From a virus: a stretch of 64,000 nucleotides of DNA. The first letter of the stretch is position 1. Each line of letters opens with the position of its first letter. Shown here one piece after another: positions 9,949 through 33,918 of the stretch. The DNA lies in the UHGV virus genome UHGV-0272730; one strand, written 5' to 3'. Made by a program: the position numbers and the translations under genes. Below the pieces are notes generated by a model. That model saw nothing but the letters and a program-made list of their open reading frames with translations, did no database searches and had not been told where the DNA came from.

Positions 9949-9950
9949 AT

Positions 9951-10924: not shown

Positions 10925-10929
10925 AAAAT

Positions 10930-11007: not shown

Positions 11008-11011
11008 ATGA

Positions 11012-11083: not shown

Positions 11084-11179
11084 ATGAAAGAGGTCTGGAG
11101 TTGTGCCGCTAACTCAACTCCGTGGAATTTGTTACGGTCTTCAGTTGACTCAAAGCGGTCTTTCACTTGACCTCTGAAT

Positions 11180-11671: not shown

Positions 11672-11685
11672 ATCACACCTTAATT

Positions 11686-11760
11686 TGGAGCATCCAGAGG
11701 GAATCGAACCCTCAACCTCAGTTTGGAAGACTGTAATTTTCCCGTTTAAACTATGGATGC
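11686..11760 (-). tRNA. tRNA-Gly (anticodon TCC)
   Basis: Acceptor TGGATGC/GCATCCA perfect, anticodon loop CTTCCAA, T arm GAGGG-TTCGATT-CCCTC, CCA encoded. Confidence 0.65.
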
Positions 11761-11766
11761 ACTAAT

Positions 11767-11842
11767 TGGTGGAGAAGCAGGGAATTGAACCCTGTACTTA
11801 AGTTTGCAAAACTTATGTTTTAACCATGTAAACTACATCCCC
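11767..11842 (-). tRNA. tRNA-Ala (anticodon TGC)
   Basis: Anticodon arm TAAGT-TTTGCAA-ACTTA perfect; G3-U70 wobble in acceptor stem (Ala identity element); T arm CAGGG-TTCAATT-CCCTG. Confidence 0.65.
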
Positions 11843-11848
11843 AATGTC

Positions 11849-11924
11849 TGGTACAGGTGGAGGGAATTGAACCCATCGTCTTACTGATTAAGAGTCAGCC
11901 GCATAACCATTTTGCTACACCTGC
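11849..11924 (-). tRNA. tRNA-Lys (anticodon CTT), tentative
   Basis: Anticodon arm GCTGA-CTCTTAA-TCAGT; close paralogue of tRNA at 13264-13339. Confidence 0.55.
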
Positions 11925-11931
11925 ATTAATT

Positions 11932-12009
11932 TGGTAGGAGACAAGGGATTCGAACCCTCAAACATCTCGTTCTAAGCGAGATAGGTTTACCAATTACCGT
12001 CAATCTCCC
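11932..12009 (-). tRNA. tRNA with anticodon loop CTTAGAA (anticodon TAG, Leu-type) but short variable arm
   Basis: Anticodon stem TCTCG/CGAGA perfect, T arm GAGGG-TTCGAAT-CCCTT; 78 nt. Confidence 0.5.
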
Positions 12010-12264
12010 ATTAAATCTTTTTAGAGAACTTCTAAGAACCTAAGCAACAAGGCTCCACAACAAGCTGTAATAACCTTAGAAGCCCTCTAAAAAGACCTAA
12101 ATAGGTCTTTGCATAGTCTTGTTTAATCCGGTGACTAGAACCTTTGGAGAGCTTGATATTATCTCTTCTCCGTGACACCTACTAGGTGCTTTGACAGTGT
12201 ACGACAATACACGAGGGATAAACCGACAATGCGAACAAGCATGGACGGAGTAAATCTTATTAGG
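12010..12264 (-). ncRNA. structured non-coding spacer in tRNA array (candidate stable RNA)
   Basis: 255 nt without convincing ORF; about 19 bp imperfect inverted repeat (12017-12036 vs 12074-12093) plus small hairpin AGACCTAAATAGGTCT. Confidence 0.3.
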
Positions 12265-12354
12265 CGGTAAGTAAAGGAGTCGAACCCTCACCGTATCTCT
12301 ACAGTGGCAACTGTTTTCAAGACAGTTTGGCTACCATTAGCCGCTACCTACCCC
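12265..12354 (-). tRNA. tRNA-Ser (anticodon TGA), class II
   Basis: Acceptor GGTAGGT/ACTTACC, anticodon arm ACTGT-CTTGAAA-ACAGT perfect, long variable arm, T loop TTCGACT. Confidence 0.6.
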
Positions 12355-12365
12355 TAATAAGACTT

Positions 12366-12448
12366 TGGCATGGGACGGAGGAGTTGAACCCCTTTGAAAC
12401 GGTTTTGGAGGCCGTTGCTCATGCCTTAGAGTCTTAACATCGTCCCAT
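12366..12448 (-). tRNA. tRNA-Trp (anticodon CCA), tentative, with enlarged D region
   Basis: Acceptor ATGGGAC/GTCCCAT perfect, anticodon arm ACGGC-CTCCAAA-ACCGT; 83 nt. Confidence 0.5.
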
Positions 12449-12460
12449 ATTATAATTCGA

Positions 12461-12489
12461 AGCTTACCCTGTTATCTCAACACTGTCAA
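12461..12489 (-). promoter_or_regulatory. candidate sigma70-like promoter upstream of tRNA at 12366-12448
   Basis: Minus strand TTGACA (12484-12489), 17 bp spacer, TAAGCT (12461-12466). Confidence 0.3.
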
Positions 12490-12590
12490 GCTTCTTCTCA
12501 GATTATTTACATGTTCTGGAAAACATGAGATACAGACCACCTCCTTACACGGAGACCCGATAAGGTCGTCTAAGCAATCTGCTAACTATT

Positions 12591-12667
12591 TGGTACACCC
12601 TACAGGATTCGAACCTGTAACTAACGATTTAGAAGACCGTTGCTCTATCCAATTGAACTAAGGGTGC
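12591..12667 (-). tRNA. tRNA-Arg (anticodon TCT)
   Basis: Acceptor GCACCCT/AGGGTGT, D arm GTTC/GAGC, anticodon arm ACGGT-CTTCTAA-ATCGT, T arm ACAGG-TTCGAAT-CCTGT, CCA encoded. Confidence 0.65.
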
Positions 12668-12987
12668 ATTAACATTTTAAAGGGTACTTATTGCATTTAA
12701 GCCAAGCCCCATAAGGGATACCCTTTAGAATGTTGCCCACCTTATTAATCATACCGTGGGCGAGTACGCCAAATTCTTTGATGAGGGATTGGAAGACCTC
12801 ACTGGTGTTTAGCCTATCAAGCTACTGCCAGAAAAACATTGTCGTTTGCATTTATTTTAAATTTTCAAAATAGACGCTACGCAACGAAAACTATTCAGAA
12901 TATGTACAACAAATTTCCCCACATTGTGTTACGTCTAACGCTCATGTATTGGTGTTTGAATTATACATATTATGAAGTGTTTTAGTT

Positions 12988-13016
12988 ACTATAAAGTAGT
13001 CACATCTCAATGTCAA
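12988..13016 (-). promoter_or_regulatory. candidate sigma70-like promoter within 360 nt tRNA spacer
   Basis: Minus strand TTGACA (13011-13016), 17 bp spacer, TATAGT (12988-12993). Confidence 0.4.
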
Positions 13017-13031
13017 CAACTTTATTGAAAT

Positions 13032-13107
13032 TGGTGCTGGTAGGTGGAATCGAACCACCGATGTTCCCTTATCAGGGGAGTGTTATAACCTTCTTAACTA
13101 TACCAGC
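13032..13107 (-). tRNA. tRNA-Ile (anticodon GAT)
   Basis: Acceptor GCTGGTA/TACCAGC, D arm GTTA/TAAC, anticodon loop CTGATAA, T arm GGTGG-TTCGATT-CCACC, CCA encoded. Confidence 0.65.
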
Positions 13108-13108
13108 T

Positions 13109-13185
13109 TGGAGGTTCAGATGGGAATCGAACCCACATTCATAGGGCTTATGAAACCCCTGCATTACCTTATCTGCGACTGAACC
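13109..13185 (-). tRNA. tRNA with anticodon CAT (Met, fMet or Ile2)
   Basis: Acceptor GGTTCAG/CTGAACC, anticodon arm GGGGT-TTCATAA-GCCCT, T loop TTCGATT, CCA encoded. Confidence 0.55.
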
Positions 13186-13263
13186 AGAATAAGTACCCTA
13201 GTTAGAGAAACTGTTGAGTGGGTGTTTCCAGCCGCGCAGGTGTTTCTCAGTTAAGGGTGAATT

Positions 13264-13339
13264 TGGTAGAAGTGGAGGGATTCGAACCCATCGCCTGTCA
13301 GATTAAAAGTCTGCCGCATCACCATTCTGCTACACTTCC
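13264..13339 (-). tRNA. tRNA-Lys (anticodon TTT)
   Basis: Acceptor GGAAGTG/CACTTCT, anticodon loop CTTTTAA, T loop TTCGAAT, CCA encoded. Confidence 0.6.
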
Positions 13340-13539
13340 ATTAAATTATCTTTGTAGATAAGCTACCCAGACTTGCTTAAGGTCTGTAGCGATGTGCCTT
13401 TTTGGGTTTAAATCTAGAATTTACCCTTTCACCCTTTGTGGTCGCATACTCACAGGTAAGCTTAATAACTTATCTACAAAGATAATTACCAGACCGTTGT
13501 TTATCATCTTAAGTGCTACCATTACACCAACTCGACATC

Positions 13540-13566
13540 TGCCGAGTGAAGGAATCGAACCTTCGC
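13540..13566 (-). other. tRNA-like 3' fragment (T arm plus acceptor strand only)
   Basis: GAAGG-TTCGATT-CCTTC T arm followed by ACTCGGC on the minus strand, but no complementary 5' acceptor strand or anticodon arm within about 100 nt. Confidence 0.3.
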
Positions 13567-13795
13567 CTTTTCTTTACCGAGAAATAGATTGTTTAAGTTT
13601 TGCTGTAAACGGTCTTCTGTAAATTTGTTGAGCCAGACCAAGTTTTAAATTTTTCAAAATTAAATTGGCTTGAAATTTTCATACGTTCTTGCTGTATTTG
13701 GTCTTCTGCTCCTTTAAAGGATACTCGTAAGAACCCTTTAAGGGAGGGGCTAAAATAGCCCTCTCAAACATCATTTTGAAATACTTATTATAATT

Positions 13796-13873
13796 TGGCG
13801 GTTACGAAGGGATTTGAACCCTCATCATCTCCCGTGACAGGGGAGTATTTTAACCAGATTAAACTACATAACC
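13796..13873 (-). tRNA. tRNA-Asp (anticodon GTC)
   Basis: Anticodon arm CTCCC-CTGTCAC-GGGAG perfect, T arm GAGGG-TTCAAAT-CCCTT, CCA encoded. Confidence 0.65.
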
Positions 13874-13879
13874 TTTATT

Positions 13880-13967
13880 TGGTGTGCCGTGTAGGAGTCG
13901 AACCTACCGAGTCTCAATGACAAGGGATTTACAGTCCCCACCGCTACCATCTACGGGATAACGACAC
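13880..13967 (-). tRNA. tRNA-Tyr (anticodon GTA), class II
   Basis: Acceptor GTGTCGT/ACGGCAC (one G-U), 3 bp D stem CCG/CGG, anticodon arm GGGGA-CTGTAAA-TCCCT, about 15 nt variable arm, T arm GTAGG-TTCGACT-CCTAC. Confidence 0.6.
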
Positions 13968-13976
13968 ATTTAAATT

Positions 13977-14053
13977 TGGCGGTTAGTCAGGGATTCGAAC
14001 CCTGTGCCATTCGCTTAACAGGCGACCGCACATACCTTATGTGCTTCCTAACC
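13977..14053 (-). tRNA. tRNA-Asn (anticodon GTT)
   Basis: D arm GCAC/GTGC, anticodon loop CTGTTAA, T arm CAGGG-TTCGAAT-CCCTG, CCA encoded. Confidence 0.6.
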
Positions 14054-14130
14054 TTAATACATTGCCAGACCGTGTTTTTTCTTTTATCCGCAAAAAGTAT
14101 TTTGTTGCTGAATACGGTCTTCTGCAAAAT

Positions 14131-14207
14131 TGGAGGCGGGTGCAGGAGTCGAACCTGCCGATACCATGCTAATGAGACATGTGAGACGCCCTTTCTCTAT
14201 ACCCGCA
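14131..14207 (-). tRNA. tRNA with anticodon CAT (Met-type; 1-72 mismatch hints at initiator)
   Basis: Anticodon arm CATGT-CTCATTA-GCATG, T arm GCAGG-TTCGACT-CCTGC, CCA encoded; first acceptor pair appears unpaired. Confidence 0.5.
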
Positions 14208-14298
14208 ATTCTTAATGACCAGACCAAATCTCTTCTTTGTCCGATTTACCTTCAGATGAATAAGATTAAGTTTGCTGTAATTGGTCTTCTGTCAAAAC

Positions 14299-14376
14299 TG
14301 GCGTTCCAGAAGGGATTTGAACCCTCAGATATCCACTTTGAAAGAGTGGTGACTTTACCATTTTGTCTACTGGAAC
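14299..14376 (-). tRNA. tRNA-Glu (anticodon TTC)
   Basis: Acceptor GTTCCAG/CTGGAAC perfect, anticodon arm CCACT-CTTTCAA-AGTGG perfect, CCA encoded. Confidence 0.65.
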
Positions 14377-14383
14377 ATTAATT

Positions 14384-14460
14384 TGGTCTCTGTTGGAGGA
14401 CTTGAACCTCCGGCCTTACCGCCCCAAACGGAACGCTCTACCAAGCTGAGCTAAACAGAG
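14384..14460 (-). tRNA. tRNA-Pro (anticodon TGG)
   Basis: Acceptor CTCTGTT/AACAGAG perfect, D arm GCTC/GAGC, anticodon loop TTTGGGG, T arm GGAGG-TTCAAGT-CCTCC, CCA encoded. Confidence 0.65.
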
Positions 14461-24673: not shown

Positions 24674-26262
24674 TTGAGTAAAATTTACGAAATTTATATT
24701 TTTTATAAAATTTTATCGGTTGTCCCAACCTCTGGGTCACCATCATATGTGAATAAAATATCTACCCTTCTTAACAACCTTCTTAATCTTACTCTCTATA
24801 TAGTTATATAGTACTATATAGTATCTTAGTAACTATCTAGTGGTCTTAATAGCCCTCTGTATAGCCCTTCTAAATAGCCCTCTAAACACTCTTCTAACAA
24901 GCCTTCTTAACAACCTATACAATCACCTTAACCATCTCTCTACACTCTCTTAGAAGCTCCTATACACCTCTTAATCTCTATGTCAGCTATGATACTCTCT
25001 ATAGGTGTTCACTAGGTGCTACTAAGCCTCTATATAGACTGTTTTAACAAACTTAACAGGAATATCTTTACAGACCTTATCTCACAAGGTCTAACACGGT
25101 ACTAACAAGGTATCTTATAAGCCTGTTATTACCTGTATTTTAGAAAGACTGTATAGGTAATTATTCAGATTTTTAAAATTTTTATAAAATAGGACTATCA
25201 AGTCATTTTTTAGGGTCTTTGAAGGAACTGAAAAATATCTGTAGAAGATGTATATCTGCTTGGTAGCCCTTAACAGCTCCCTTACAAGTACTTTGCAAAA
25301 TTTTAAAATATCCTTAACAATCTCTTAACAGCTCTAACACCTTCTTAACAACTCTTCAAAGGTCTTAACAGATTCTTAACAGAACTAACAAGAGCGTAAC
25401 AGTTTCTTAACAGTTGATACATAGGCTTTACAGAATCTTAACAGATGACTAACAAGAGCTAACAAGTTAATTTTTAAGAGTTATTTTGTTAAGATAATTA
25501 ACAAGTCTCTAACAAGTGTTTAATCTTTTTAACAAGCTATTAACATGGTCACTACTCTTTCTTATCGTTCCCTTTCCCTTCTTAGTGATTCTTTAAACAT
25601 ACCTCTTAAAAGCTCTCTATAGCTCTTTATAGCCTCTTTTAAGCCTCTTCCTAGTAGTTACACCCCAACTGTACAGATACCTCTTTATAGAGCTTTACAG
25701 GAGCTTTTAAGGCTATGTCAAAGACTCTTACAAGGCTTTTACGTGGCCTTAACAGAGATTTAACAAGGGGCTAACAAGTCTCTAACAAGTGCCTTAAAAG
25801 CATAACTATGTAGGGATTGTTAAGAAATTGTTAAGAGAATGTTAAGGGGGCTAGCATTTACGTAACTTTATAGCCCCTTTTACGTAACTTTTAAGCTACT
25901 TCAAAGTAACTTTATAGCCCCTATAACATACTTTTAAGACACTAACAAGCCCTTTTTAGATATTCACAAGAATACTAATGAGATGATAAAGCTTACACCC
26001 TTATAAGATTCTTTTAAGTCTCTGGGAAGCTTTATAAAGGGCTTTTAAGGGTGAGGTAATGCAATCCCTTAAGTTAGGTTGATAAGGCTGTTATAGAGCT
26101 TTATAGAGCGTTTAAATGGGCCATCCCCTTTCTGGGGTTATTGGCTTTTATTTAAGTTGATTTGATAAGAGGTTATAGAGTAGACTATAGAGTTATTGCT
26201 TTTAAGGTCTGATAAGATTCTGGAAAGGTGAGGGAAAGGGATTGTATAAGGATTCGATAGAC
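24674..26262. repeat. ORF-free repeat-rich region with iterated TTAACA(A/G) motifs
   Basis: No ORF of 60 aa or more on either strand; more than 20 copies of CTTAACAG/CTAACAAG, densest 25260-25800 at roughly 10-11 bp spacing; CTATATAG-type palindromes at 24800-25030. Confidence 0.6.
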
Positions 26263-26288
26263 GTAAAAAAGCCCCTTTAAATAGGGGC
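26263..26288 (-). terminator. rho-independent terminator ending minus-strand early block
   Basis: Minus strand hairpin GCCCCTATTTAAAGGGGC followed by TTTTTT. Confidence 0.55.
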
Positions 26289-26327
26289 TGTTCAGGTATC
26301 TGGGGCTATTTAGCCCCGCTGCGTCGA

Positions 26328-26576
26328 TTAGTTATAATCTTGCTTGTTGTAGTACAGGGAGACAATTTTTTCTCCCCAGTAGTGGTAGTGATATTCCTCG
26401 TTTATGGCTTCTTTTACAGCGTCCTTCCAAAAGTCATCGGTAGGGTTATAATCTGGTAGCACCTGCTGAATCAGCATTTTGATAAGGTCAAAGGTGTTAT
26501 TTGTTCCACCGATATCGAATTTTGCATCAAGTTCGTGGCAGCCATAAGCATTAACAGTTACGCGGATAGTTGACAT
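26328..26576 (-). CDS. hypothetical early protein
   Basis: 82 aa ORF preceded by conserved intergenic cassette with GGAG SD. Confidence 0.45.
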   Translation of the reverse strand: MSTIRVTVNAYGCHELDAKFDIGGTNNTFDLIKMLIQQVLPDYNPTDDFWKDAVKEAINEEYHYHYWGEKIVSLYYNKQDYN

Positions 26577-26640
26577 AATTTAGATTCTCCAGTTTAGGAC
26601 TTTACTTAGTGGGGGAGGTCATCCCCCGTTAATTAGTAAT

Positions 26641-26904
26641 TTACTGCATATTGGCGTATGTTGCAAGCCTTTTTTCGTTGTATTTTGTAAGAATCTCACA
26701 AGATACAACATCATACTTTGTGACAGCGTTGCCTTTATCGAGGTCAAAAAAGCCAAACGCTTTACCATCTTTGAATCCGACAACTTCGTAAGATTCTTTG
26801 ATGATTTCACCATTGAACAAATCACTTTCGATACGGTGAAATAATGCTACATCTTCTTTGTCGGTTGCAATTTGTAAAAGTGTGGTTAATTCTACGTTTT
26901 CCAT
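26641..26904 (-). CDS. hypothetical early protein
   Basis: 87 aa ORF preceded by cassette. Confidence 0.45.
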   Translation of the reverse strand: MENVELTTLLQIATDKEDVALFHRIESDLFNGEIIKESYEVVGFKDGKAFGFFDLDKGNAVTKYDVVSCEILTKYNEKRLATYANMQ

Positions 26905-26970
26905 CTTGATAACTCCAGTTTAGGATTTTATTTAGTGGGGAAGGCCATTCCCTCCCCGTTGATTGACAAT

Positions 26971-27501
26971 TTACAGACTTTTAATTGTCTCGTCAATATC
27001 TTTTTCAATGTCTTTTAAAGTTTTTTCTAAGTTCTTGATATTAAAGGATAAACCTTCACCAAGAGTCTTAGAGTAACCACTAGGACGTAAATTATACAGT
27101 TTAATTTCTTCCACTTTAAAGAGACTAACTAACTCACCGTTTACATCATAAGCCATTGAAACAGTATTTGCAGGTGCATTGTAAAACTTGTTTAAGGACT
27201 TGATAGAACGTTCATAAGCCATTTTATAACCATTTAAAAGGTTTTTAACGTGATTGTGAACGTTTTTACACTCATCTAAGTAAAGACCTAAAAACATCGG
27301 GAGAAGTTCCGCGACAGCTTGCATAAAGTGAGAAACTACAACAGTAGAAACATTACGACGATGGACGTAATAAGCTCCGTTTTCTGATTTAGTGATGGTT
27401 GCAAAGTGTACACCATTGCAACGAAATTCATAGGTATCTTTAACAGGCTTTGACATTACAGCATTTGAACGAATGAAGTTGATAGCTTGAAATTTGTTCA
27501 T
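26971..27501 (-). CDS. hypothetical early protein
   Basis: 176 aa ORF preceded by cassette. Confidence 0.45.
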   Translation of the reverse strand: MNKFQAINFIRSNAVMSKPVKDTYEFRCNGVHFATITKSENGAYYVHRRNVSTVVVSHFMQAVAELLPMFLGLYLDECKNVHNHVKNLLNGYKMAYERSIKSLNKFYNAPANTVSMAYDVNGELVSLFKVEEIKLYNLRPSGYSKTLGEGLSFNIKNLEKTLKDIEKDIDETIKSL

Positions 27502-27727
27502 TTTAGAATCTCCAGTTTAGGATTTTATTTAGTGGGGAAGGCCATTCCCTCCCGTTGATTAGTAATTTACTTGTTTTGATTTCTGATTGCAAGTAATTTT
27601 TTTTTTTTAAGTTTATCTATAAAGAATCTTTTAAGTTAATCCCTTTAAGATAAACCCCCTCGAACAAAGTTACCAATGTCAATGGGTATTGTCAACACTT
27701 TTTTGAAAGTTTTTTGTAAGTTATTGA

Positions 27728-28069
27728 TTAACTGATGAATATTTTTTCAGGTTTTACATAGCTGATACGCTGACTTTTTAGCAGGTCATCCCAGATTAAC
27801 GCGGCGATATGGGCATAACCGGATTCACGTAAAAGTTTCATTGTTTTACTTCTCGTTTCAAAACGGCTTGCATAGTACTCACTATTCAGCGTCGTTTTAT
27901 TCCCTTCGTTGTCTACATGGATAATCTGCATCACTTGAAAGGGGCTTGTGTCCTCGCCTTTATTCCACTGTTCAAAGTATTTTAGGCACTGCATAGGTGA
28001 CATCTTATCACTGACCTGAGTTGACCATGATGCGCCAGCTTTATCGGTAATTACGGTTACATAAGCCAT
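27728..28069 (-). CDS. hypothetical early protein
   Basis: 113 aa ORF preceded by cassette. Confidence 0.45.
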   Translation of the reverse strand: MAYVTVITDKAGASWSTQVSDKMSPMQCLKYFEQWNKGEDTSPFQVMQIIHVDNEGNKTTLNSEYYASRFETRSKTMKLLRESGYAHIAALIWDDLLKSQRISYVKPEKIFIS

Positions 28070-28159
28070 TTTTAGATTCTCCAGTTTAGGATTTTATTTA
28101 GTGGGGAAGGTCATTCCCTCCCCGTTGATTGACAATTTACAGATTTTTATCAGGCTTGT

Positions 28160-28393
28160 CTAGTCTTTTTCAATGATAATTTCATACTGGCCATCTACGC
28201 TGTCAAAATAGACACCGTCTTCATCTTCTGTCTTAAAGTAGCATTGAATATCATCACTGGCGGGATAGTCTTGCCTTGCTATCTGGCAAACTTGAATAGC
28301 ATTTTCTTTACTTCCTGTAAACTCTTCAAGCCCTTTAAAGTCACATGAATGGCCATTACAGATGGAAAGGATGAGGTAAATGGTTGTAAGCAT
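28160..28393 (-). CDS. hypothetical small secreted or lipoprotein-like protein
   Basis: 77 aa; hydrophobic N-terminus MLTTIYLILSICNG with Cys near predicted cleavage site. Confidence 0.4.
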   Translation of the reverse strand: MLTTIYLILSICNGHSCDFKGLEEFTGSKENAIQVCQIARQDYPASDDIQCYFKTEDEDGVYFDSVDGQYEIIIEKD

Positions 28394-28459
28394 GATTTAA
28401 GCCCTCTAAAAGCCCCTACAAGGGGCTGATTAGTGTTTATAAGGTGATTGCATAGGTTT

Positions 28460-29002
28460 TTAGAAAAAGCTCTTTAAATCCTCTTCTGCAATGTTTCCTG
28501 TCAGTGTATCCATGATGTCACAAAAAACCTGAATACTGTCCGACTGTTGAACACTTTTAGCAAGAAGCTCCAGAGACTCATCAAGATAGTTTAAATTTGG
28601 GTTATCCAATGAAGGAAGACAAAAAGGTGAATACATAGCGTTAAACTCTGTTGTATAGACCTTTTTAATCCAATTTACATCAAAGTACTCTGTAAAACTT
28701 GCTACACTCGACATATTATCACAAGAATAATCATCGTTTAGCTCATCCTCTGGAATATCGAGTTCTAAGATAACAATATTTTGAGTCTTCATCTGAAAAG
28801 CTGCGGTGATAGTGGCATTGCCTAGAGCTTGCTGAATACCTTCCGATGTTATCTCTTCATCATCGTCGCCATAGATTTTATTTTCTGGATACACGTAAAA
28901 ATTGCCGTCCATATCCGAACAATTCCATGCGCCTGATGGTTTATCACCGTTATTAATCAGGTTGAGGAAATTTTCTTGAGTAGTTCCGTGATAGCATTTC
29001 AT
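28460..29002 (-). CDS. hypothetical early protein (acidic)
   Basis: 180 aa ORF preceded by cassette. Confidence 0.45.
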   Translation of the reverse strand: MKCYHGTTQENFLNLINNGDKPSGAWNCSDMDGNFYVYPENKIYGDDDEEITSEGIQQALGNATITAAFQMKTQNIVILELDIPEDELNDDYSCDNMSSVASFTEYFDVNWIKKVYTTEFNAMYSPFCLPSLDNPNLNYLDESLELLAKSVQQSDSIQVFCDIMDTLTGNIAEEDLKSFF

Positions 29003-29089
29003 TTTTGAATCTCCTAGTTTAAGGATTGAGTGGTAAAGCTCTTTATCTGGGGCTTACTTTATCGAACTATAAGCCCCTTGTAAAGTGCT

Positions 29090-29338
29090 TTATTTAACTT
29101 TCTTTGAGAAAACTAGTTTGACTGCAACTGTAGGAATCTCGCCAGCAGTTGTAACCAGCATTACTTTTTGAGTAACCAACCTATAGCCGTTCTTTGCAGC
29201 GTATGCGGTGAAACGGTTAACATTGTAACTATAAGTTTTTGCCGTGTTATCTGGCATGTGGTAAATGAAAGGTTTACCCAAATTTTCTTCTTGTGTCAAT
29301 AATCTACAGGTATCGGGAATGTTAAAGTAGTTCATCAT
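29090..29338 (-). CDS. hypothetical early protein
   Basis: 82 aa ORF preceded by cassette. Confidence 0.45.
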   Translation of the reverse strand: MMNYFNIPDTCRLLTQEENLGKPFIYHMPDNTAKTYSYNVNRFTAYAAKNGYRLVTQKVMLVTTAGEIPTVAVKLVFSKKVK

Positions 29339-29424
29339 TTTTAGAATCTCCAGTTTAGGATTTAGTGGTAAAGCTCTTTATCTGGGGCTTAAGTTATCAA
29401 CTTTTAAGCCCCTTGTAAAGTACT

Positions 29425-29628
29425 TTATTTGTTATTTTTGACAACTTTTAAAACTGCAAGATAGCCTAAGCAATAAGAATCACCGAAGAGAGTCCTACCC
29501 ATGAAAGAATCCTCTTTGATATCCTTTGCAGTGACAGTTTTTTCTACGCCGTGGGAAAGGACTATATCGCCAACTTTGATATCTTTGATGTGTGTAGTTT
29601 CAATGGTTAAATCATTAATAATAGCCAT
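29425..29628 (-). CDS. hypothetical early protein
   Basis: 67 aa ORF preceded by cassette. Confidence 0.4.
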   Translation of the reverse strand: MAIINDLTIETTHIKDIKVGDIVLSHGVEKTVTAKDIKEDSFMGRTLFGDSYCLGYLAVLKVVKNNK

Positions 29629-29732
29629 TTTTTGAATCTCCTAGTTTAAGGACTTTACTTAGTGGGGAAGGTCATTCCCTCCCCGTTGATGTGTAATTTA
29701 ATCTATCTAAAAACCAGTGTCAACAAAATTTT

Positions 29733-30137
29733 TTAGAGTTCTGCATAAATTGCATCACAGATATCGCGGAAGTCATGATTAGTCAAATTACGCTGCAACC
29801 AAGTGGCGAAAAAGTCAGCGATTGCAAAGTTAGCATCATACTCGACAGATAGCCACACTTTAACAGCAAATCGGAACATTTTCAAATCTAACTCTTTATT
29901 CATTACCTTAGATTTGCCTAACATGTCGGACATTTCATATTGCGCACCGTCTAGTGTGATACCTGCTGCAACGTCAGCCAATGAATTTTTTACGCTTTCA
30001 ACGTCTAAGATAACACTTTGAATCTTCCCAATAATGTTTTGCAGTGTTTCATCTGGTGCTGATGACGTGATAACATTAATCCGGTTAACGGTCAAACGTG
30101 CTTTTAAAATTGATAATTCACGGTTATTAATAGCCAT
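29733..30137 (-). CDS. hypothetical early protein (start set to ATG; track used upstream TTG)
   Basis: Cassette GGAG sits 9 nt upstream of ATG at 30137..30135. Confidence 0.45.
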   Translation of the reverse strand: MAINNRELSILKARLTVNRINVITSSAPDETLQNIIGKIQSVILDVESVKNSLADVAAGITLDGAQYEMSDMLGKSKVMNKELDLKMFRFAVKVWLSVEYDANFAIADFFATWLQRNLTNHDFRDICDAIYAEL

Positions 30138-30223
30138 TTTTAAGTTCTCCAATTTAGGATTTAGTGGTAAAGCTCTTTATCTGGGGCTTACTTTATCGAA
30201 CTATAAGCCCCTTGTAAAGTACT

Positions 30224-30496
30224 TTACATTAAATGCAGTTTTTTGCCTTTTACTATAATGTAACTCGATGTGCTATTGCTTTGCACATCTTGATAAATTC
30301 TGCGCAAACGGCCTTCATAGTGTACTTTCCAGCTAGTTGGAATCTTTTTCCCGTATCCGGTAGCAGTTTTTTGGAGTCCTGCTACTTGCCAATCTAAGAT
30401 GTGTTGCTCAGCTTGTAAATCATCAAAGCACATTACACCATCAACATAGTGACGTAGAGTGACATTTAAAGTACGACCGTTGTTAGTAGTATACAT
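30224..30496 (-). CDS. hypothetical early protein
   Basis: 90 aa ORF preceded by cassette. Confidence 0.45.
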   Translation of the reverse strand: MYTTNNGRTLNVTLRHYVDGVMCFDDLQAEQHILDWQVAGLQKTATGYGKKIPTSWKVHYEGRLRRIYQDVQSNSTSSYIIVKGKKLHLM

Positions 30497-30585
30497 TTTT
30501 GAATCTCCTAGTTTAAGGACTTTATTTAGTAGGGAGGTTATTGCCTCCCCGTTGATGTGTAATTTAATCTATCTAAAAATCAGTG

Positions 30586-30918
30586 TCAACAGTTTTGTTT
30601 TCGTTTGCTCAATTCTTGAACAATTACAGCGTGATAATCTTTTAAGTCACTAATATTTAAAGCATTTATCAGAGAATTATAATCATCGACTAATTGAAAA
30701 TTATCTTTGAAAATGTCACTGATTTGATAAGTTCTCGCCCTGAATCTAAAGCTCATTTCTAGCCGTTTTAATTGTTCATCACTTAAACGCTCTAGAAAGC
30801 TCATTACAAGGTTATTATTAACCTGCTGTGTGATTGCCTTATTTGCTAGATTATAGGCTTTATATGCCTTATATAGCGCGAAAATGGCAATGATTGCAGT
30901 GATACCAGTCATTAACAT
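30586..30918 (-). CDS. hypothetical membrane-anchored early protein
   Basis: 110 aa; N-terminal TM helix GITAIIAIFALYKAY. Confidence 0.4.
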   Translation of the reverse strand: MLMTGITAIIAIFALYKAYKAYNLANKAITQQVNNNLVMSFLERLSDEQLKRLEMSFRFRARTYQISDIFKDNFQLVDDYNSLINALNISDLKDYHAVIVQELSKRKQNC

Positions 30919-31208
30919 GGTGTTTCCTCTTTACGTGATACTTTGCCATTTACAGTTATCTCATAGGATTCTAATAAATCGCTTTTAGACTTTACAGGAC
31001 TTTTAAAAGTATCATCATAAATATTGACTTGCAATACAGGTTTTTTATACTCCCTGTAACTGTTCCATAAGCAAATCACTACACGACGGCCTTTGATTTT
31101 TCCGTGTAACCATTCCATAACATCATGACTATTCCTTGATGTTTCAATGAAATCAATTTTATTAAGTAACTTGCTTAAATTTTCACGGACTTTATTTGAT
31201 AATTTCAT
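30912..31208 (-). CDS. hypothetical early protein
   Basis: 98 aa ORF preceded by cassette. Confidence 0.45.
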   Translation of the reverse strand: MKLSNKVRENLSKLLNKIDFIETSRNSHDVMEWLHGKIKGRRVVICLWNSYREYKKPVLQVNIYDDTFKSPVKSKSDLLESYEITVNGKVSRKEETPC

Positions 31209-31300
31209 TTTAGAATCTCCTAGTTTAAGGGTTGATTTGAATAAAGCTCTTTATCTGGGGCTATCTTATCAGTCTGATAACCCCGTGTAAAGAAATCTAT

Positions 31301-31813
31301 TTAGTTCTTAAAGATATTCATCACTGAGTCTTTCAACGATTCCAAACGTTCTAATACTTCAGATTCTGCGTCTGCGTTGTTCACCTCTTCTTTTAGTCTA
31401 TCCTCTAAATCATCGCCGTCACGATAGCACCAATCGAAAGCATAACCAAGATAAAAACTTTCTAAAACCGTGCTACCGTTTGCATCCACAACTTTCGCGG
31501 CAAGGTTATACTCTGAAGCCTCTAAATCTCTTTCTAGTTCTTTCTGTAAGCTCGTGTAAGCCTCTTTCGATGGATTCTCACGGCCTTGTTTTGCATAGTC
31601 ACTTGAAAGCTGTTTAAGGCTGTAATGTAAAGGGATTGCATATTTAAATTCATTACGCTGACAGTTAGGATTTTTAATCGTCACACCGCCTCGATGGTCA
31701 TCTGTAAACTTCCAATTATCAAGATTATGGCTTGCTTCAAAGCAATTTACCGCTTCGTAGATAATAGTGAATTTTTCTTTTACAACTTCAAAGGTAGCGT
31801 CTACAGTTTTCAT
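31301..31813 (-). CDS. hypothetical early protein
   Basis: 170 aa ORF preceded by cassette. Confidence 0.45.
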   Translation of the reverse strand: MKTVDATFEVVKEKFTIIYEAVNCFEASHNLDNWKFTDDHRGGVTIKNPNCQRNEFKYAIPLHYSLKQLSSDYAKQGRENPSKEAYTSLQKELERDLEASEYNLAAKVVDANGSTVLESFYLGYAFDWCYRDGDDLEDRLKEEVNNADAESEVLERLESLKDSVMNIFKN

Positions 31814-31898
31814 TTTTGAATCTCCAGTTTAGGATTGAGTGGTAAAGCTCTTTATCTGGGGCTTAAGATATCAACTTTTAAGCCCCCTGTAAAGTACT

Positions 31899-32192
31899 TT
31901 ATTTGTTAATTTTCAGCTTTGCATAACTTCTCATTGTACGAATGGGGGATGTTAATGCTACGCGTCTAATATATGCCTTTTTCGTGTATACACTTGTCTT
32001 CCCGATAGTGTTTACACATGTAAAAAGGTTTATCGGTGAATTTTTTAACTTCAACTGCTTATCAACCTTCACGCCCCACCTTACAGCAGATTGTTTTCCG
32101 TTGTCAACCACTTTCCCGCATAACTTTTTAGCCATGATACGAGCGTCATCACGAGTCTTTGCGGTAATTACAACGTTTTTGATAATAGCCAT
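31899..32192 (-). CDS. hypothetical early protein (start set to ATG)
   Basis: Same cassette/start arrangement as 29733..30137. Confidence 0.45.
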   Translation of the reverse strand: MAIIKNVVITAKTRDDARIMAKKLCGKVVDNGKQSAVRWGVKVDKQLKLKNSPINLFTCVNTIGKTSVYTKKAYIRRVALTSPIRTMRSYAKLKINK

Positions 32193-32278
32193 TTTTAAGT
32201 TCTCCAATTTAGGATTTAGTGGTAAAGCTCTTTATCTGGGGCTTACTTTATCGAACTATAAGCCCCTTGTAAAGTACT

Positions 32279-32662
32279 TTATTTGTTAATTTTGAAGATA
32301 GTTACATAACCATCACTACCGATTATTTGAGACACTCCAGCTTTTTCTACTTTATAGCCCATATTTTCAAGATGATAAACAGCATCATCATAACCATATG
32401 CGCCACCCTGATAACGTCTCTTATCACATTTTATCAGGTTTTTACCACGTCCAGCAAGTGCATGTAAAATGGCTTTTTCACTTGAAAGAGTACCATCTAA
32501 CATGGTTGCCGTGTAATGGTTGATTCTATTCCCGTTTACATCATACTTAAAATTGAATGCGTGAACAATGATAATGTTACCTTTAAAATTTTCATCAAGT
32601 GACTTCTCCAGTGCGTTGCGAAAGTTGTCCTTGTTGATGAATTTAGGTGCACGATAAGCCAT
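32279..32662 (-). CDS. hypothetical early protein (first gene of early block)
   Basis: 127 aa ORF; preceded by cassette and candidate promoter. Confidence 0.45.
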   Translation of the reverse strand: MAYRAPKFINKDNFRNALEKSLDENFKGNIIIVHAFNFKYDVNGNRINHYTATMLDGTLSSEKAILHALAGRGKNLIKCDKRRYQGGAYGYDDAVYHLENMGYKVEKAGVSQIIGSDGYVTIFKINK

Positions 32663-32725
32663 TTTTGAATCTCCAGTTTAGGACTTTATTTAGTGGGGAA
32701 GGTCATTCCCTCCCCGTTGATGCAA

Positions 32726-32754
32726 ATATTAGATAACCACACTCAAAGAGTCAA
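32726..32754 (-). promoter_or_regulatory. candidate strong sigma70-type promoter for early gene block
   Basis: Minus strand TTGACT (32749-32754), 17 bp spacer, TAATAT (32726-32731). Confidence 0.45.
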
Positions 32755-32920
32755 GAAAAATTTTAAAAATATTTTTGGCAAAACTGTAATGAAACGGGCG
32801 CACACGACTACCACAAAACAGAACACAAATCAAGAATTATTTTTCAATCCGCTACAAATTTTTCTCTTGACTTTTAGGGAGAGGGGGAGAGGGGTTGGTC
32901 TGGCTCTCTATAAAAACCTA

Positions 32921-33065
32921 CCTGCACAATTCTAAAATGATTTTTCTTGCCCGACCTGAGCGGGGTCTGCACGTTTTGAAAATGATTTTTCTATCCGGCT
33001 ATGAGATTTTTTGGGATATCTGTACAGACCCCTACAGATACCTGCACAAATTGAAAATGAAAAAG
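32921..33065. repeat. three direct repeats of a roughly 27 bp element
   Basis: CCTGCACAATTCTAAAATGATTTTTCT (32921-32947), TCTGCACGTTTTGAAAATGATTTTTCT (32967-32993), CCTGCACAAATTGAAAATGAAAAAG (33041-33065). Confidence 0.55.
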
Positions 33066-33138
33066 GCCGCCTTACCTTAAATTTTTCAATGGGTTAGGCA
33101 GCCTTCTTAGATGATTTGTAGATACTATGAAGTGCTAA

Positions 33139-33918
33139 TCAGCTTATGAATTTGAACTTTTTAGAATACAGCAAGTAGTGAACTTCATCCTGATTTGTTG
33201 TGTAGATGTATGCTGCTGGGTAGTTATCAAAGAACACCCCTTCATATCTTCCAAACGGGTCAACTGGGAACATTTCACTGTTACACATACCCATCTCACT
33301 AACCAGAGGGTAACTAACCTCAACCTTGCCATCAACAAGCTGATAGAGGGTAACTTGATTAGTCTTCCCGTCACTTAGCACGACACCATCATAGAATTGT
33401 GGTGCTGAGGTAGCATACTTAGGGGTAACTACACTTGCCATTGCTTCATCATAGACGTAGAGGTACACATCAACGTTATACATAACACTATTAATGAGGC
33501 TTTTCACAGCTTGTGCATCTAAACCGCCTATACCTGCCCCAATCATGGGTAAACCAATCTTACGAATGTTGTGCAGCCAGCAAAATTTACGGAGTTTTTC
33601 TAGTGACTCCACTAAGTATCGGTATGATGCACACTTCCCAACATCCAACTGTGTATATAGGTTAAAAATGTAACCATACTCCGTTCGAGCATGTGACACC
33701 TCACCAACCATCTGGTATCCGATATCATGAGCACTGTAGCCAAACTTTTTATGGAATTTCCGGTCAGCTTCTTCAGCTTTTGGGAAAATCTTAGCAATTT
33801 TTTGAGCGATTCCAGCACCCATGAGGTTACGACAGTTGCAACCATGAGCAATTAACTCAATATCTGTGTTTTTGAAGGCAGCCAGTAAGTTACCTTTTAC
33901 AACTTTTACAATACCCAT
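33139..33918 (-). CDS. macrodomain protein (TARG1/DarG-like ADP-ribosyl hydrolase fold) with C-terminal domain of unknown function
   Basis: 259 aa; N-terminal 150 aa carries IAHGCNCRNLMGAGIAQKIAKIFP and GLPMIGAGIGGLD, matching TARG1/OARD1-type macrodomain signatures as I recall them; C-terminal 110 aa unassigned. Confidence 0.55.
   Translation of the reverse strand: MGIVKVVKGNLLAAFKNTDIELIAHGCNCRNLMGAGIAQKIAKIFPKAEEADRKFHKKFGYSAHDIGYQMVGEVSHARTEYGYIFNLYTQLDVGKCASYRYLVESLEKLRKFCWLHNIRKIGLPMIGAGIGGLDAQAVKSLINSVMYNVDVYLYVYDEAMASVVTPKYATSAPQFYDGVVLSDGKTNQVTLYQLVDGKVEVSYPLVSEMGMCNSEMFPVDPFGRYEGVFFDNYPAAYIYTTNQDEVHYLLYSKKFKFIS

What the first reader, a model, noticed from the sequence alone, without database searches (positions are those of the whole stretch)
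26577..32720. At least 14 copies of a conserved stem-loop/SD cassette punctuating about 15 small early genes
Nearly every intergenic gap in the early block holds one of two variants of a 65-90 bp element: a GC-rich hairpin (type A GGGGAGGGAATGACCTTCCCC, type B GGGGCTTAAAAGTTGATAACTTAAGCCCC), an AT-rich spacer, and a fixed ribosome-binding region (CTAAACTGGAGATTCTAAAAATG). Type B also contains a possible TTTACA-N17-TAACTT promoter overlapping the hairpin. This resembles the promoter-early-stem-loop (PeSL) cassettes reported in T4-type phages as mediators of modular gene shuffling, but in a different phage lineage. The small genes they flank are all of unknown function and are prime anti-defence or host-takeover candidates.
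Basis: seen in the sequence. Interest (0 to 1): 0.65.

Follow-up and report, generated by a model that had tools for sequence, protein, structure and literature searches.

The report
Repeated promoter–hairpin–RBS cassettes between phage genes
In this Felix O1-type phage, 13 of 15 small genes of unknown function are each preceded by one of two near-identical 90-base cassettes (host-type promoter, GC-rich hairpin, ribosome-binding site), and related phages have gained, lost and swapped genes at these cassettes, as with the "PeSL" cassettes so far reported only in T4-type phages.

Summary
There are 7 type A and 6 type B cassettes, all on the minus strand between 26,574 and 32,754, and none elsewhere in the 64 kb. 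The window is a Felixounavirus, 98% identical to Escherichia phage ECML-1.

- **Type A:** TTGACA-like box, 17 nt, TAAATT, 10 nt, then an 8-bp G-rich hairpin, then the ribosome-binding site.
- **Type B:** TTTACA, 17 nt, TAnnnT, all embedded in a roughly 60-nt, 20-bp three-helix hairpin. Compensatory changes support its stems. Its unpaired -10 bases are invariant in 43 distinct copies.

G·U wobbles indicate the hairpins fold in sense-strand RNA. None is followed by a U-tract.

Fourteen relatives from four Ounavirinae genera carry the same arrays with different gene content. Of 66 homology breakpoints, 49 fall inside cassettes, which make up 21% of the array. Deletion junctions are chimeric cassettes. 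Stem variants are shared by every copy within a genome, which points to concerted evolution.

This is a PeSL-like system in a non-T4 lineage. Promoter, terminator and processing activities were not tested.

The parts
32660..32754 (-). Cassette A15, the first of the array. -35 TTGACT 32749-32754; -10 TAATAT 32726-32731; hairpin GGGGAGGGAATGACCTTCCCC 32695-32715; GGAG 32671-32674; ATG 32660-32662.
32190..32282 (-). Cassette B14. Long hairpin 32222-32282, which contains the upstream stop codon TAA. -35 TTTACA 32268-32273; -10 TAAAGT 32245-32250; upper stem-loop 32238-32266; GGAG 32202-32205; ATG 32190-32192. Identical over 99 nt to B9.
31811..31902 (-). Cassette B13. Long hairpin 31842-31902; -35 31888-31893; -10 TATCTT 31865-31870; GGAG 31822-31825; ATG 31811-31813.
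31206..31300 (-). Cassette B12, the short-stem subtype GGGGTTATC...GATAGCCCC. Long hairpin 31241-31300; -35 31286-31291; -10 TAAGAT 31263-31268; ATG 31206-31208.
30494..30589 (-). Cassette A10. -35 TTGACA 30584-30589; -10 TAAATT 30561-30566; hairpin GGGGAGGCAATAACCTCCCT 30531-30550; ATG 30494-30496.
30135..30227 (-). Cassette B9. Long hairpin 30167-30227; -35 30213-30218; -10 TAAAGT 30190-30195; ATG 30135-30137.
29626..29723 (-). Cassette A8. -35 TTGACA 29718-29723; -10 TAAATT 29695-29700; hairpin 29664-29684; predicted +1 at about 29686-29687; ATG 29626-29628.
29336..29428 (-). Cassette B7. Long hairpin 29368-29428; -35 29414-29419; -10 TAACTT 29391-29396; predicted +1 at about A 29383; ATG 29336-29338.
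29000..29093 (-). Cassette B6. Long hairpin 29033-29093; -35 29079-29084; -10 TAAAGT 29056-29061; ATG 29000-29002.
28067..28162 (-). Cassette A4. -35 TAGACA 28157-28162; -10 TAAATT 28134-28139; hairpin 28103-28123; ATG 28067-28069.
27499..27592 (-). Cassette A3. -35 TTGCAA 27587-27592; -10 TAAATT 27564-27569; hairpin 27534-27553; ATG 27499-27501.
26902..26996 (-). Cassette A2. The -35 TTGACG (26991-26996) lies inside the upstream ORF. The -10 TAAATT (26968-26973) includes that ORF's stop codon. Hairpin 26937-26957; ATG 26902-26904.
26574..26666 (-). Cassette A1. The -35 TTGCAA (26661-26666) lies inside the upstream ORF. The -10 TAAATT (26638-26643) includes the stop codon. Hairpin GGGGGATGACCTCCCCC 26611-26627; ATG 26574-26576.
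32279..32662 (-). Cargo gene w4, 127 aa, phrog_4495, unknown function. Follows a type A cassette here but type B in 8 relatives. Absent from ASO1A and Felix O1.
31899..32192 (-). Cargo gene w5, 97 aa, phrog_5089. Tandemly duplicated in Michonne and absent from Felix O1.
31301..31813 (-). Cargo gene w6, 170 aa, phrog_4190 (Felix O1 ORF16, maximal at 5 min).
30912..31208 (-). Cargo gene w7, 98 aa, phrog_4401.
30586..30918 (-). Cargo gene w8, 110 aa, phrog_4375. It overlaps the end of w7 and has no cassette of its own.
30224..30496 (-). Cargo gene w9, 90 aa, phrog_3436.
29733..30137 (-). Cargo gene w10, 134 aa, phrog_4327 (Felix O1 ORF20, maximal at 5 min).
29425..29628 (-). Cargo gene w11, 67 aa, phrog_3623. 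Absent from Michonne, SUSP1 and Felix O1.
29090..29338 (-). Cargo gene w12, 82 aa, phrog_9030. The gene-plus-cassette unit is absent from finno, MBP4696116, SeKF_63, Felix O1 and ESCO45. It follows type A in Michonne and SUSP1.
28460..29002 (-). Cargo gene w13, 180 aa, phrog_3303.
28160..28393 (-). Cargo gene w14, 77 aa, phrog_4640. It is preceded by a non-cassette spacer (28394-28459) with the hairpin AGCCCCTTGTAGGGGCT and TTTTAGAGGG.
27728..28069 (-). Cargo gene w15, 113 aa, phrog_4318. It follows type A here and type B in Michonne and SUSP1.
26971..27501 (-). Cargo gene w16, 176 aa, phrog_4725.
26641..26904 (-). Cargo gene w17, 87 aa, phrog_7022. Absent from Felix O1.
26328..26576 (-). Cargo gene w18, 82 aa, phrog_4559. 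Last gene of the array.
26270..26289 (-). Canonical intrinsic terminator (AGCCCCTATTTAAAGGGGCT followed by TTTTTT) that closes the array. It corresponds to Felix O1 t23.
33056..33105 (-). Terminator-like hairpin plus T-run after the macro-domain/phosphatase gene (33139-33918). It resembles Felix O1 t13 and separates the array from upstream transcription.
   Evidence: read from sequence; Felix O1 Table 2; the pattern scan did not call it
27667..27695 (-). Extra sigma-70-like promoter TTGACA-N17-TAACTT in the 226-nt spacer upstream of cassette A3. Not part of a cassette.
   Evidence: annotated as a promoter in ASO1A

Best explanation
The 13 elements are composite regulatory cassettes. Each supplies the stop-codon context for the gene before it. 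For the gene after it, each supplies a host-RNA-polymerase (sigma-70) promoter, a GC-rich RNA hairpin and a near-consensus ribosome-binding site.

Type A. The hairpin starts 10 nt after the -10 box. Transcripts made from the cassette's own promoter should therefore begin 2-3 nt before an 8-bp stem. That arrangement would protect the 5' end of the mRNA (inferred).

Type B. The whole promoter sits inside a roughly 60-nt, 20-bp interrupted hairpin.
- The hairpin's 5' arm begins at the upstream gene's stop codon.
- The hairpin is complete only in RNA read through from upstream.
- There it most likely acts as an intercistronic 3' stabiliser, attenuator or processing site, while the embedded promoter re-initiates transcription just after the upper stem (inferred).

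Consequence of repetition. The cassettes are long, co-oriented and nearly identical, so they serve as sites of homologous recombination. Genes are deleted, inserted, duplicated and re-paired with cassettes as cassette-bounded units, and the copies within a genome homogenise each other. The comparative pattern is shown here; the enzymology is inferred. In anatomy and in evolutionary behaviour this matches the PeSL cassettes of T4-type phages, but in the Ounavirinae.
For: Promoters
- Type A: in 64 distinct copies from 15 genomes the -10 is always TAnnnT (TAAATT in 50). The hexamer exactly 17 nt upstream matches TTGACA at 4 or more of 6 positions in 62 of 64 copies (background 5.5%), even where it lies inside unrelated upstream ORFs. 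The 22 nt upstream are 77% A+T against 63% overall. The -10-to-stem distance is fixed at 10 nt.
- Type B: CTTTACA and the T, A and T of TAnnnT are invariant in 43 distinct copies. The T and A lie in the unpaired apical loop, and the C and A of TTTACA lie in an internal loop. G at -14 is conserved in at least 90% of copies (an extended -10). Spacing stays at 17-18 nt across the length variants.
- The consensus scan flags 10 of the 13 cassettes.

Hairpins
- Type B upper stem: 91% of cells paired against at most 54% when the partner is slid. There are 27 double-change cells against 11.3 in shuffles (0 of 500). GC changes to UA at one pair, and another pair shows six pair types.
- Full three-helix fold: predicted in 67 of 68 distinct copies and by RNAalifold. 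98.6% of cells are paired, against at most 60% when slid. Energies are -24 to -27 kcal/mol, z-scores -2.9 to -4.6.
- U·G and G·U wobbles occur only in the sense orientation. Sense folds are about 2 kcal/mol more stable than antisense folds.

Shuffling
- Arrays of 8-17 cassettes occur in Felixounavirus, Mooglevirus and Suspvirus, and 4 type B copies in Kolesnikvirus.
- Nineteen protein families sit directly behind cassettes, and four of them follow type A in some genomes and type B in others.
- The w12 deletion leaves a chimeric type B cassette, with different crossover points in finno and MBP4696116.
- The 4-gene gap in Felix O1 is bridged by a chimeric type A cassette.
- 49 of 66 homology breakpoints lie inside cassettes, which cover 21% of the array (p = 3e-20).
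- Lineage-specific stem variants, including a compensatory double change, are shared by all copies in a genome.

Context
- All 13 copies lie in one 6.2-kb block of genes of unknown function.
- The SUSP1 homologues are all 'Not Fit' in a knock-down screen.
Against: - No transcript data exist for any member of this subfamily in the searched literature. Promoter use, start sites, termination and processing are all unverified.
- In type B, the -35 and part of the -10 are also stem positions, so part of their conservation could come from the fold alone.
- The lower helices of type B are almost invariant. Only one pair shows a compensatory change, in 4 sequences.
- None of the hairpins is followed by a U-tract, so a terminator role, part of the PeSL definition, is doubtful here.
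- Nearly every spacer in the array is a cassette. Breakpoints 'in cassettes' therefore cannot be fully separated from breakpoints 'between genes' that survive selection. The 66 breakpoints are also not phylogenetically independent.
- Felix O1 RT-PCR places several array genes at 25 min rather than 5 min.
Confidence: 0.75

Rival explanations
1. The array is one polycistronic operon driven from the first cassette. The repeats are purely RNA elements. Type B would be an RNase III-type processing site, as between the phage T7 early genes. Type A would be a stabilising hairpin at processed ends. The promoter-like hexamers would be by-products.
For: - Type B folds into two roughly 10-bp stems around a 3x3 internal loop, about 20 bp in all, between cistrons.
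- The wobble pattern points to sense RNA as the folded molecule.
- There is no U-tract.
- The T7 comparison rests on my own knowledge of T7 RNase III sites.
Against: - Unpaired bases that matter only for sigma-70 recognition are invariant: T and A of the -10 in the apical loop, C and A of the -35 in the internal loop, and G at -14.
- The 17-nt spacing is kept through indels.
- Type A has a TTGACA-like box at exactly 17 nt in 62 of 64 copies, although it lies in unrelated sequence.
- The type A stem is only 8 bp, too short for RNase III.
- Processing and promoter functions could also coexist, which would fold this rival into the main explanation.
Confidence: 0.12
2. The hairpins are ordinary rho-independent terminators, as annotated in some GenBank relatives, each followed or preceded by an independent promoter.
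For: KhF1 and ASO1A annotate type A hairpins as terminators, and ASO1A annotates three adjacent promoters.
Against: - No run of T follows any cassette hairpin on the gene strand (the tails are ACTAAATA and AGATAAAG), and the scan calls none of them.
- KhF1 annotates them on the non-coding strand.
- TransTerm did not list them in Felix O1, where only t13 and t23 flank the array.
- In type A the hairpin lies downstream of the promoter, so it would terminate that promoter's own transcript.
Confidence: 0.04
3. The two palindromes TAAAGnnCTTTA that flank the type B core are operators for a dimeric phage-encoded regulator, which would switch all type B promoters on or off together.
For: - Eleven of the 12 exact matches to the palindrome in the window lie in type B cassettes. 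With one mismatch allowed there are 30 matches against 5.5 expected.
- One palindrome overlaps the -35 and the other overlaps +1 to +14.
- Genome-wide uniformity of variants could reflect co-evolution with a trans-acting factor.
Against: - In four copies, at two cassette positions, G to U in the first palindrome is matched by C to A in the second. That keeps the long RNA stem but destroys both palindromes.
- U·G wobbles make no sense for a DNA operator.
- Type A has no such sites.
- No DNA-binding protein was identified.
Confidence: 0.05
4. The repeats are passive relics of ancient tandem duplication of gene-plus-leader units and play no part in gene exchange.
For: The array is tandem and co-oriented. 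Michonne has one recent tandem duplication of w5.
Against: - The 15 cargo proteins fall into 15 different families. The only apparent paralogy, w9 with w11, was a clustering artefact.
- Non-adjacent cassettes are 100% identical over 99 nt, while their cargo is unrelated.
- Junction cassettes are chimeric.
- Variants are homogenised within genomes.
Confidence: 0.03

Closest known systems
PeSL (promoter-early stem-loop) cassettes of T4-type phages (Arbiol et al. 2010, PMC2839356; Comeau et al. 2014, PMC4122927)
   Same: - Order of parts: upstream stop codon in an AT-rich stretch, sigma-70-like promoter (T4/PST type TTTACW-N17-TAYWAT), Gn-loop-Cn stem-loop, Shine-Dalgarno sequence and ATG.
- The stem-loop lies between -35 and -10 and overlaps -10 (as in type B), or just after -10 (as in type A).
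- The cassettes are dense among small non-essential genes of unknown function.
- Indels and replacements between relatives have junctions inside the cassettes, with crossovers between the hairpin and the ATG.
   Different: - Different virus subfamily (Ounavirinae), and the family is recognisable by sequence only within it.
- Only two sharply defined, highly conserved classes, against five loose positional subclasses.
- All copies lie in one array rather than in several hyperplastic regions.
- Type B extends into a roughly 60-nt three-helix hairpin that encloses the whole promoter.
- No U-tract.
- Promoter and terminator activity and mini-circles, shown for PeSLs, are untested here.
RNase III processing sites between phage T7 early genes (own knowledge; not in Rfam)
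   Same: Intercistronic hairpins of about 60 nt in a phage early operon, with two stems of about 10 bp around an internal loop. Cleavage there would leave a 3' hairpin on the upstream mRNA.
   Different: T7 sites carry no promoter and are not sites of gene exchange. Cleavage here is untested. Type A is too short.
Intergenic repeats of halovirus HF2 that carry promoters (PMC8707807; abstract seen)
   Same: Two classes of conserved repeat placed between viral genes and acting as promoters.
   Different: An archaeal virus with archaeal promoters. Going by the abstract alone, no hairpin or RBS module and no link to gene shuffling is reported.
5'-terminal stabilising stem-loops such as the ompA leader (own knowledge)
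   Same: Type A would place a stable stem 2-3 nt from the predicted 5' end.
   Different: The start site is only predicted, and the same hairpin also occurs inside read-through RNA.
Direct repeats noted in the Felix O1 genome paper (Whichard et al. 2010, PMC3185647)
   Same: The 57-bp repeat (genes 15/16 and 19/20) is the type B core. The 39-bp repeat (genes 18/19 and 20/21) is the type A promoter segment.
   Different: They were reported only as two pairs of repeats, with no structure, function or comparative interpretation. The cassette promoters were not among the promoters that paper listed.

Membership tests
PeSL cassettes | Sigma-70-like promoter (-35, about 17 nt, -10) | tested here: met
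   Sequence level only. Type A has TAnnnT in 64 of 64 copies and a TTGACA-like box at 17 nt in 62 of 64. Type B has invariant TTTACA and TAnnnT with 17-18 nt spacing in 43 distinct copies. Ten of 13 are flagged by the scan.
PeSL cassettes | AT-rich stretch upstream of -35 that holds the upstream gene's stop codon | tested here: met
   77% A+T against 63% overall. Stop codons lie 5-30 nt upstream of -35 in type B, and inside or near the -10 in some type A copies.
PeSL cassettes | Stable Gn...Cn stem-loop overlapping or adjacent to the promoter | tested here: met
   Folds of -8 to -17 kcal/mol in all copies. Covariation in type B. Positions match two published PeSL subclasses.
PeSL cassettes | Shine-Dalgarno sequence and start codon at the 3' end | tested here: met
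   GGAG lies 8-10 nt before the ATG in all 13 cassettes. 158 of 169 copies in 15 genomes have an ORF start directly downstream.
PeSL cassettes | Concentrated in a plastic region of small non-essential genes | tested here: met
   All 13 copies lie in 6.2 kb. The cargo is of unknown function. Gene content varies among 15 genomes. SUSP1 homologues are 'Not Fit'.
PeSL cassettes | Indel and replacement junctions between relatives lie inside the cassettes | tested here: met
   Chimeric junction cassettes. 49 of 66 breakpoints lie in 21% of the sequence. Caveat: the cassettes are nearly all of the intergenic space.
PeSL cassettes | Demonstrated promoter and terminator activity (reporter assays) | not testable with these tools
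   No transcript or reporter data were found for Ounavirinae.
PeSL cassettes | Formation of cassette-bounded mini-circles during infection | not testable with these tools
   This needs inverse PCR on infected cells.
PeSL cassettes | Resident in a T4-type genome | tested here: not met
   The window and all carriers are Ounavirinae. So this is an analogue in another lineage, not a member by descent.
Intrinsic (rho-independent) terminators | GC-rich hairpin immediately followed by a run of U | tested here: not met
   No cassette hairpin is called on the gene strand. Only 26270-26289 qualifies. The tails are ACUAAAUA and AGAUAAAG.
RNase III processing sites (T7 early type) | About 20 bp of interrupted double-stranded RNA between cistrons | tested here: met
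   Type B only: helices of 5-7, 5 and 9 bp with a 3x3 internal loop. Type A has only 8 bp.
RNase III processing sites (T7 early type) | Cleavage by host RNase III | not testable with these tools
   This needs a comparison of rnc mutant and wild-type hosts.
Rfam RNA families | Match to a curated covariance model | tested here: not met
   Only one sub-threshold chance match, to mir-980 on the opposite strand.

The most novel reading that the evidence does not exclude
The type B element would be a dual-use switch in which one 60-nt sequence is both a promoter in DNA and a processing or stability hairpin in read-through RNA. Its base would be opened by the ribosome terminating at the embedded stop codon. 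Expression of each gene would then be coupled to translation of its upstream neighbour. In this reading the cassettes, kept uniform within each genome, would also work as an integron-like capture platform, perhaps with a dedicated phage factor that recognises the hairpin.
Probability: 0.2. Interest if true: 0.7.

Novelty: new member of a known kind. Interest (0 to 1): 0.5.

Why it matters
PeSL cassettes have been put forward as the physical basis of modular gene shuffling, but so far only in T4-type phages. An independent and very cleanly defined counterpart in the Felix O1 subfamily suggests that 'regulatory cassette as recombination linker' is a convergent, general solution in large virulent phages. 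Felix O1-type phages are widely used for Salmonella and E. coli typing and biocontrol.

The cassettes also have practical uses:
- They mark the accessory-gene locus of about 250 sequenced phages.
- They explain much of the gene-content variation there.
- They give defined sites for inserting or swapping payload genes with built-in expression signals.
- They warn that tools aimed at ribosome-binding regions, such as CRISPRi-ART guides, will cross-react among genes in the array.

Tried and rejected
- **Mini-ORF in the type A hairpin.** GGAGGGAATGACCTTCCCCACTAAATAA would encode MTFPTK. The ATG is missing or out of frame in many copies, and the spacing from the Shine-Dalgarno-like bases is only 3 nt. 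Rejected.
- **T4 MotA-type middle promoter in type B** (GCTTTA-N11-TAAACT). A start there would remove the Shine-Dalgarno sequence, and type A lacks the box. Rejected.
- **Alternative type B promoters** (TTGATA...TAAAGA; TTTACC...). The spacings of 14 and 23 nt are wrong.
- **Paralogy of w9 and w11.** First-pass single-linkage clustering suggested it. BLASTP finds no alignment, and stricter clustering separates them.
- **Palindromic operator reading.** See the rival explanations; the covariation pattern disfavours it.
- **Rfam scan.** Nothing relevant.
- **IMG/VR scan with a 16-mer**. Multi-hit contigs are all genomes of about 85-90 kb. The covariance model recovers none of the single hits in unrelated contigs among its listed strong matches, so they look like chance. 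There is no evidence for the family outside Ounavirinae.
- **First covariance model, R1**. It was built with a mis-registered structure string and discarded. R2 was used instead.
- **Literature.** Searches for transcript maps of Felix O1-like phages, or for PeSL-like cassettes outside T4-type phages, found none. A 2026 preprint on promoter-terminator coupling could not be opened.

Full report
**Identity and layout**

The window is a Felixounavirus (subfamily Ounavirinae). The region is 98% identical to Escherichia phage ECML-1 and matches 259 phage records, all Felix O1-like apart from two records whose names point elsewhere. The genes of the finding lie on the minus strand: 15 ORFs of 67-180 aa from 32662 down to 26328. 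A canonical terminator at 26270-26289 closes the block. This terminator is Felix O1 t23. A terminator-like hairpin with a T-run after the macro-domain/phosphatase gene resembles Felix O1 t13 and separates the block from upstream genes.

**Checking the observation**

Repeat finding, a core-motif scan and nhmmer profiles agree on exactly 13 cassettes. Seven are type A and six are type B. Each ends at an ATG, and there are none elsewhere in the 64 kb. ECML-1 has 7 + 6 places in its whole genome.

One gene overlaps its upstream neighbour, and one is preceded by an unrelated hairpin spacer. The quoted sequences and the shared tail CCTAAACTGGAGAttCtAAAAATG are correct.

**Anatomy of type A**

Aligned in gene sense, type A reads as follows:
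- an A-rich stretch;
- a TTGACA-like hexamer;
- 17 nt;
- TAAATT;
- 10 nt ending in CAAC;
- a hairpin, GGGGAGGG-loop-CCTTCCCC;
- ACTAAATAAAGTCC;
- TAAACTGGAG, then ATG.

Across 64 distinct copies from 15 genomes:
- The -10 is always TAnnnT.
- The hexamer 17 nt upstream matches TTGACA at 4 or more positions in 62 of 64 copies, against 5.5% for background hexamers.
- The -10-to-stem distance is always 10 nt.

The -35 boxes sit in unrelated sequence, and in copies A1 and A2 they lie inside the upstream ORFs. Their conservation therefore cannot be inherited repeat sequence.

A start 7-9 nt after the -10 would leave 2-3 unpaired nucleotides before the stem (inference). The first cassette (A15) follows a terminator-like hairpin and about 330 nt of non-coding DNA, yet it still has the hairpin. 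That argues the type A hairpin serves the downstream transcript rather than stopping an upstream one.

**Anatomy of type B**

In 43 distinct copies, CTTTACA and the T, A and T of a TAnnnT located 17 nt (18 nt in two 1-nt-longer Erwinia-phage copies) downstream are invariant. G at -14 is at least 90% conserved.

The GC hairpin lies between the two boxes and overlaps the -10. Its stem is well supported:
- 91% of cells are paired, against at most 54% when partners are slid.
- Double-change cells number 27, against 11.3 in shuffles (0 of 500).
- One pair switches GC to UA in nine sequences.
- The pair that includes -10 position 5 shows six pair types.

The invariant T and A of the -10 are in the unpaired loop, so the fold cannot explain them.

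The conserved segment after the hairpin (AGATAAAGAGCTTTA) pairs with the -35 region and the end of the upstream ORF (ATAAAGTACTTTACA). The result is a roughly 60-nt structure of three helices, 5-7 + 5 + 9 bp, with a 3x3 internal loop. Energies are -24 to -27 kcal/mol and z-scores are -2.9 to -4.6.

Support for this long fold:
- It is predicted in 67 of 68 distinct copies and by RNAalifold.
- 98.6% of cells are paired, against at most 60% when slid.
- The lower helices are nearly invariant, so covariation is thin: one pair changes G-C to U-A in four copies, at two cassette positions.

That one change matters. Each flank is also a palindrome (TAAAGnnCTTTA), and the change preserves the long stem while breaking both palindromes. 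This favours an RNA stem over paired DNA operators.

**Which molecule folds**

U·G and G·U wobbles are common and always acceptable on the sense strand only. Sense folds are about 2 kcal/mol more stable than antisense folds for both types. The hairpins are therefore selected in sense RNA.

For type B the complete hairpin can exist only in RNA read through from the upstream gene, whose stop codon lies in the basal helix. A transcript made from the embedded promoter would start just after the upper stem and carry only the 3' arm.

No cassette hairpin is followed by a U-tract, and TransTerm did not list them in Felix O1. The 'terminator' annotations in KhF1 (placed on the wrong strand) and in ASO1A are therefore doubtful. 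Attenuation, 3'-end protection or RNase III-type processing are the plausible roles. The type B architecture recalls the RNase III sites between T7 early genes (my own knowledge), but this cannot be tested here. Rfam has nothing comparable.

**Relatives and gene exchange**

I fetched the homologous block from 14 phages in four genera.
- Arrays of 8-17 cassettes occur in Felixounavirus, Mooglevirus and Suspvirus.
- Erwinia and Hafnia Kolesnikviruses have four type B copies with a different ribosome-binding tail.
- BLAST finds type A in 244 phage records and type B in 289, essentially all Ounavirinae.
- A covariance model recovers about 230 sense-strand copies in the loci held, all from genomes of about 85-90 kb.

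Gene content differs in cassette-bounded units:
- w12 is absent from five genomes.
- Felix O1 lacks w4, w5, w11-w14 and w17.
- f28 is inserted in ASO1A and finno.
- w4 alternates with f22 + f17.
- Michonne has a tandem w5 duplication with two back-to-back type B cassettes.
- Gene order is rearranged in the Erwinia phages.
- Four gene families follow type A in some genomes and type B in others.

Junctions are chimeric cassettes. The w12 deletion joins the upstream part of one type B cassette to the downstream part of the next, with different crossover points in finno and MBP4696116. The four-gene gap in Felix O1 is bridged by a type A chimera that crosses over just before the ATG.

Of 66 internal homology breakpoints, 49 lie in cassettes, which occupy 21% of the array (p = 3e-20). 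These events are not independent, and cassettes make up nearly all of the intergenic space.

Lineage-specific stem variants are shared by every copy in a genome:
- Michonne 10 of 10;
- SUSP1 7 of 7;
- ESCO45 4 of 4, with the compensatory pair GGTG/CACC;
- the Erwinia and Hafnia phages 8 of 8.

This indicates concerted evolution through recombination among copies, or co-evolution with a trans-acting factor. Non-adjacent copies B9 and B14 are identical over 99 nt although their cargo is unrelated.

**Cargo**

All 15 proteins match PHROG families of unknown function and have no Pfam domain. Their SUSP1 homologues (agp097-agp108) are all 'Not Fit' in a dCas13d knock-down screen. In Felix O1, RT-PCR found ORFs 16, 20, 21 and 22 maximal at 5 min and ORFs 14, 17, 19 and 23 maximal at 25 min. 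The anti-defence idea remains untested.

**Comparison with what is known**

The anatomy and behaviour match the published definition of PeSLs point by point. This includes the two stem-loop positions and crossovers between the hairpin and the ATG.

The differences are:
- the lineage;
- two sharply conserved classes confined to a single array;
- the extended type B hairpin that encloses the promoter;
- the lack of any U-tract.

The Felix O1 genome paper listed two pairs of these repeats without interpretation. I found no paper that describes PeSL-like cassettes outside T4-type phages, and no transcript map for this subfamily.

I therefore file this as a new member of a known kind. It is of moderate interest. 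The evidence is solid at the sequence and comparative level, and every biochemical step is still inferred.

Noticed in passing
window 24690-26270: About 1.6 kb with no credible ORF lies between two convergent terminators. It is packed with degenerate repeats of 10-12 bp period. These include about 13 copies of CTTAACAGnnn at 25313-25446, CTATATAGTA at 24796-24841, a 22-bp unit repeated three times at 25857-25922, and TATAGAGCTTTA near-palindromes. Some relatives' GenBank records start inside this region, so it may hold the genome end or an origin.
   Followed up: partly
window 8675-14460: A cluster of 26 tRNA genes, all on the minus strand.
   Followed up: no
window 32780-33060: The non-coding leader upstream of the first cassette holds three direct repeats of about 39 nt (32922-32960, 32967-33005, 33042-33080). 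It also holds a C/T-rich run, CCCCTCTCCCCCTCTCCC, on the minus strand. Function unknown.
   Followed up: no
window 28394-28459: The one spacer in the array that is not a cassette. It has a different hairpin, AGCCCCTTGTAGGGGCT, followed by TTTTAGAGGG and the ATG. This is a terminator-like stem running straight into a Shine-Dalgarno sequence.
   Followed up: partly
window 27603-27695: The 226-nt spacer upstream of cassette A3 has an extra TTGACA-N17-TAACTT promoter (27667-27695, minus strand) and an A12 run.
   Followed up: no
window 32279-32295, 31899-31915, 29425-29441: Three unrelated upstream proteins (w4, w5, w11) end in almost the same residues (K-I/N-N-K, then stop). The A-rich 5' edge of the type B cassette reaches 12-15 nt into their coding sequence.
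   Followed up: partly
L008 (Citrobacter phage Michonne) 5093-5268: Two type B cassettes lie back to back with no gene between them, beside a tandem duplication of gene w5. This looks like a fresh recombination product.
   Followed up: partly
L009 (phage SUSP1) array genes agp097-agp108: The published CRISPRi-ART guides target ribosome-binding regions, which in this array are repeated cassette sequence. Guides may therefore hit several genes at once. All of these genes scored 'Not Fit'.
   Followed up: no
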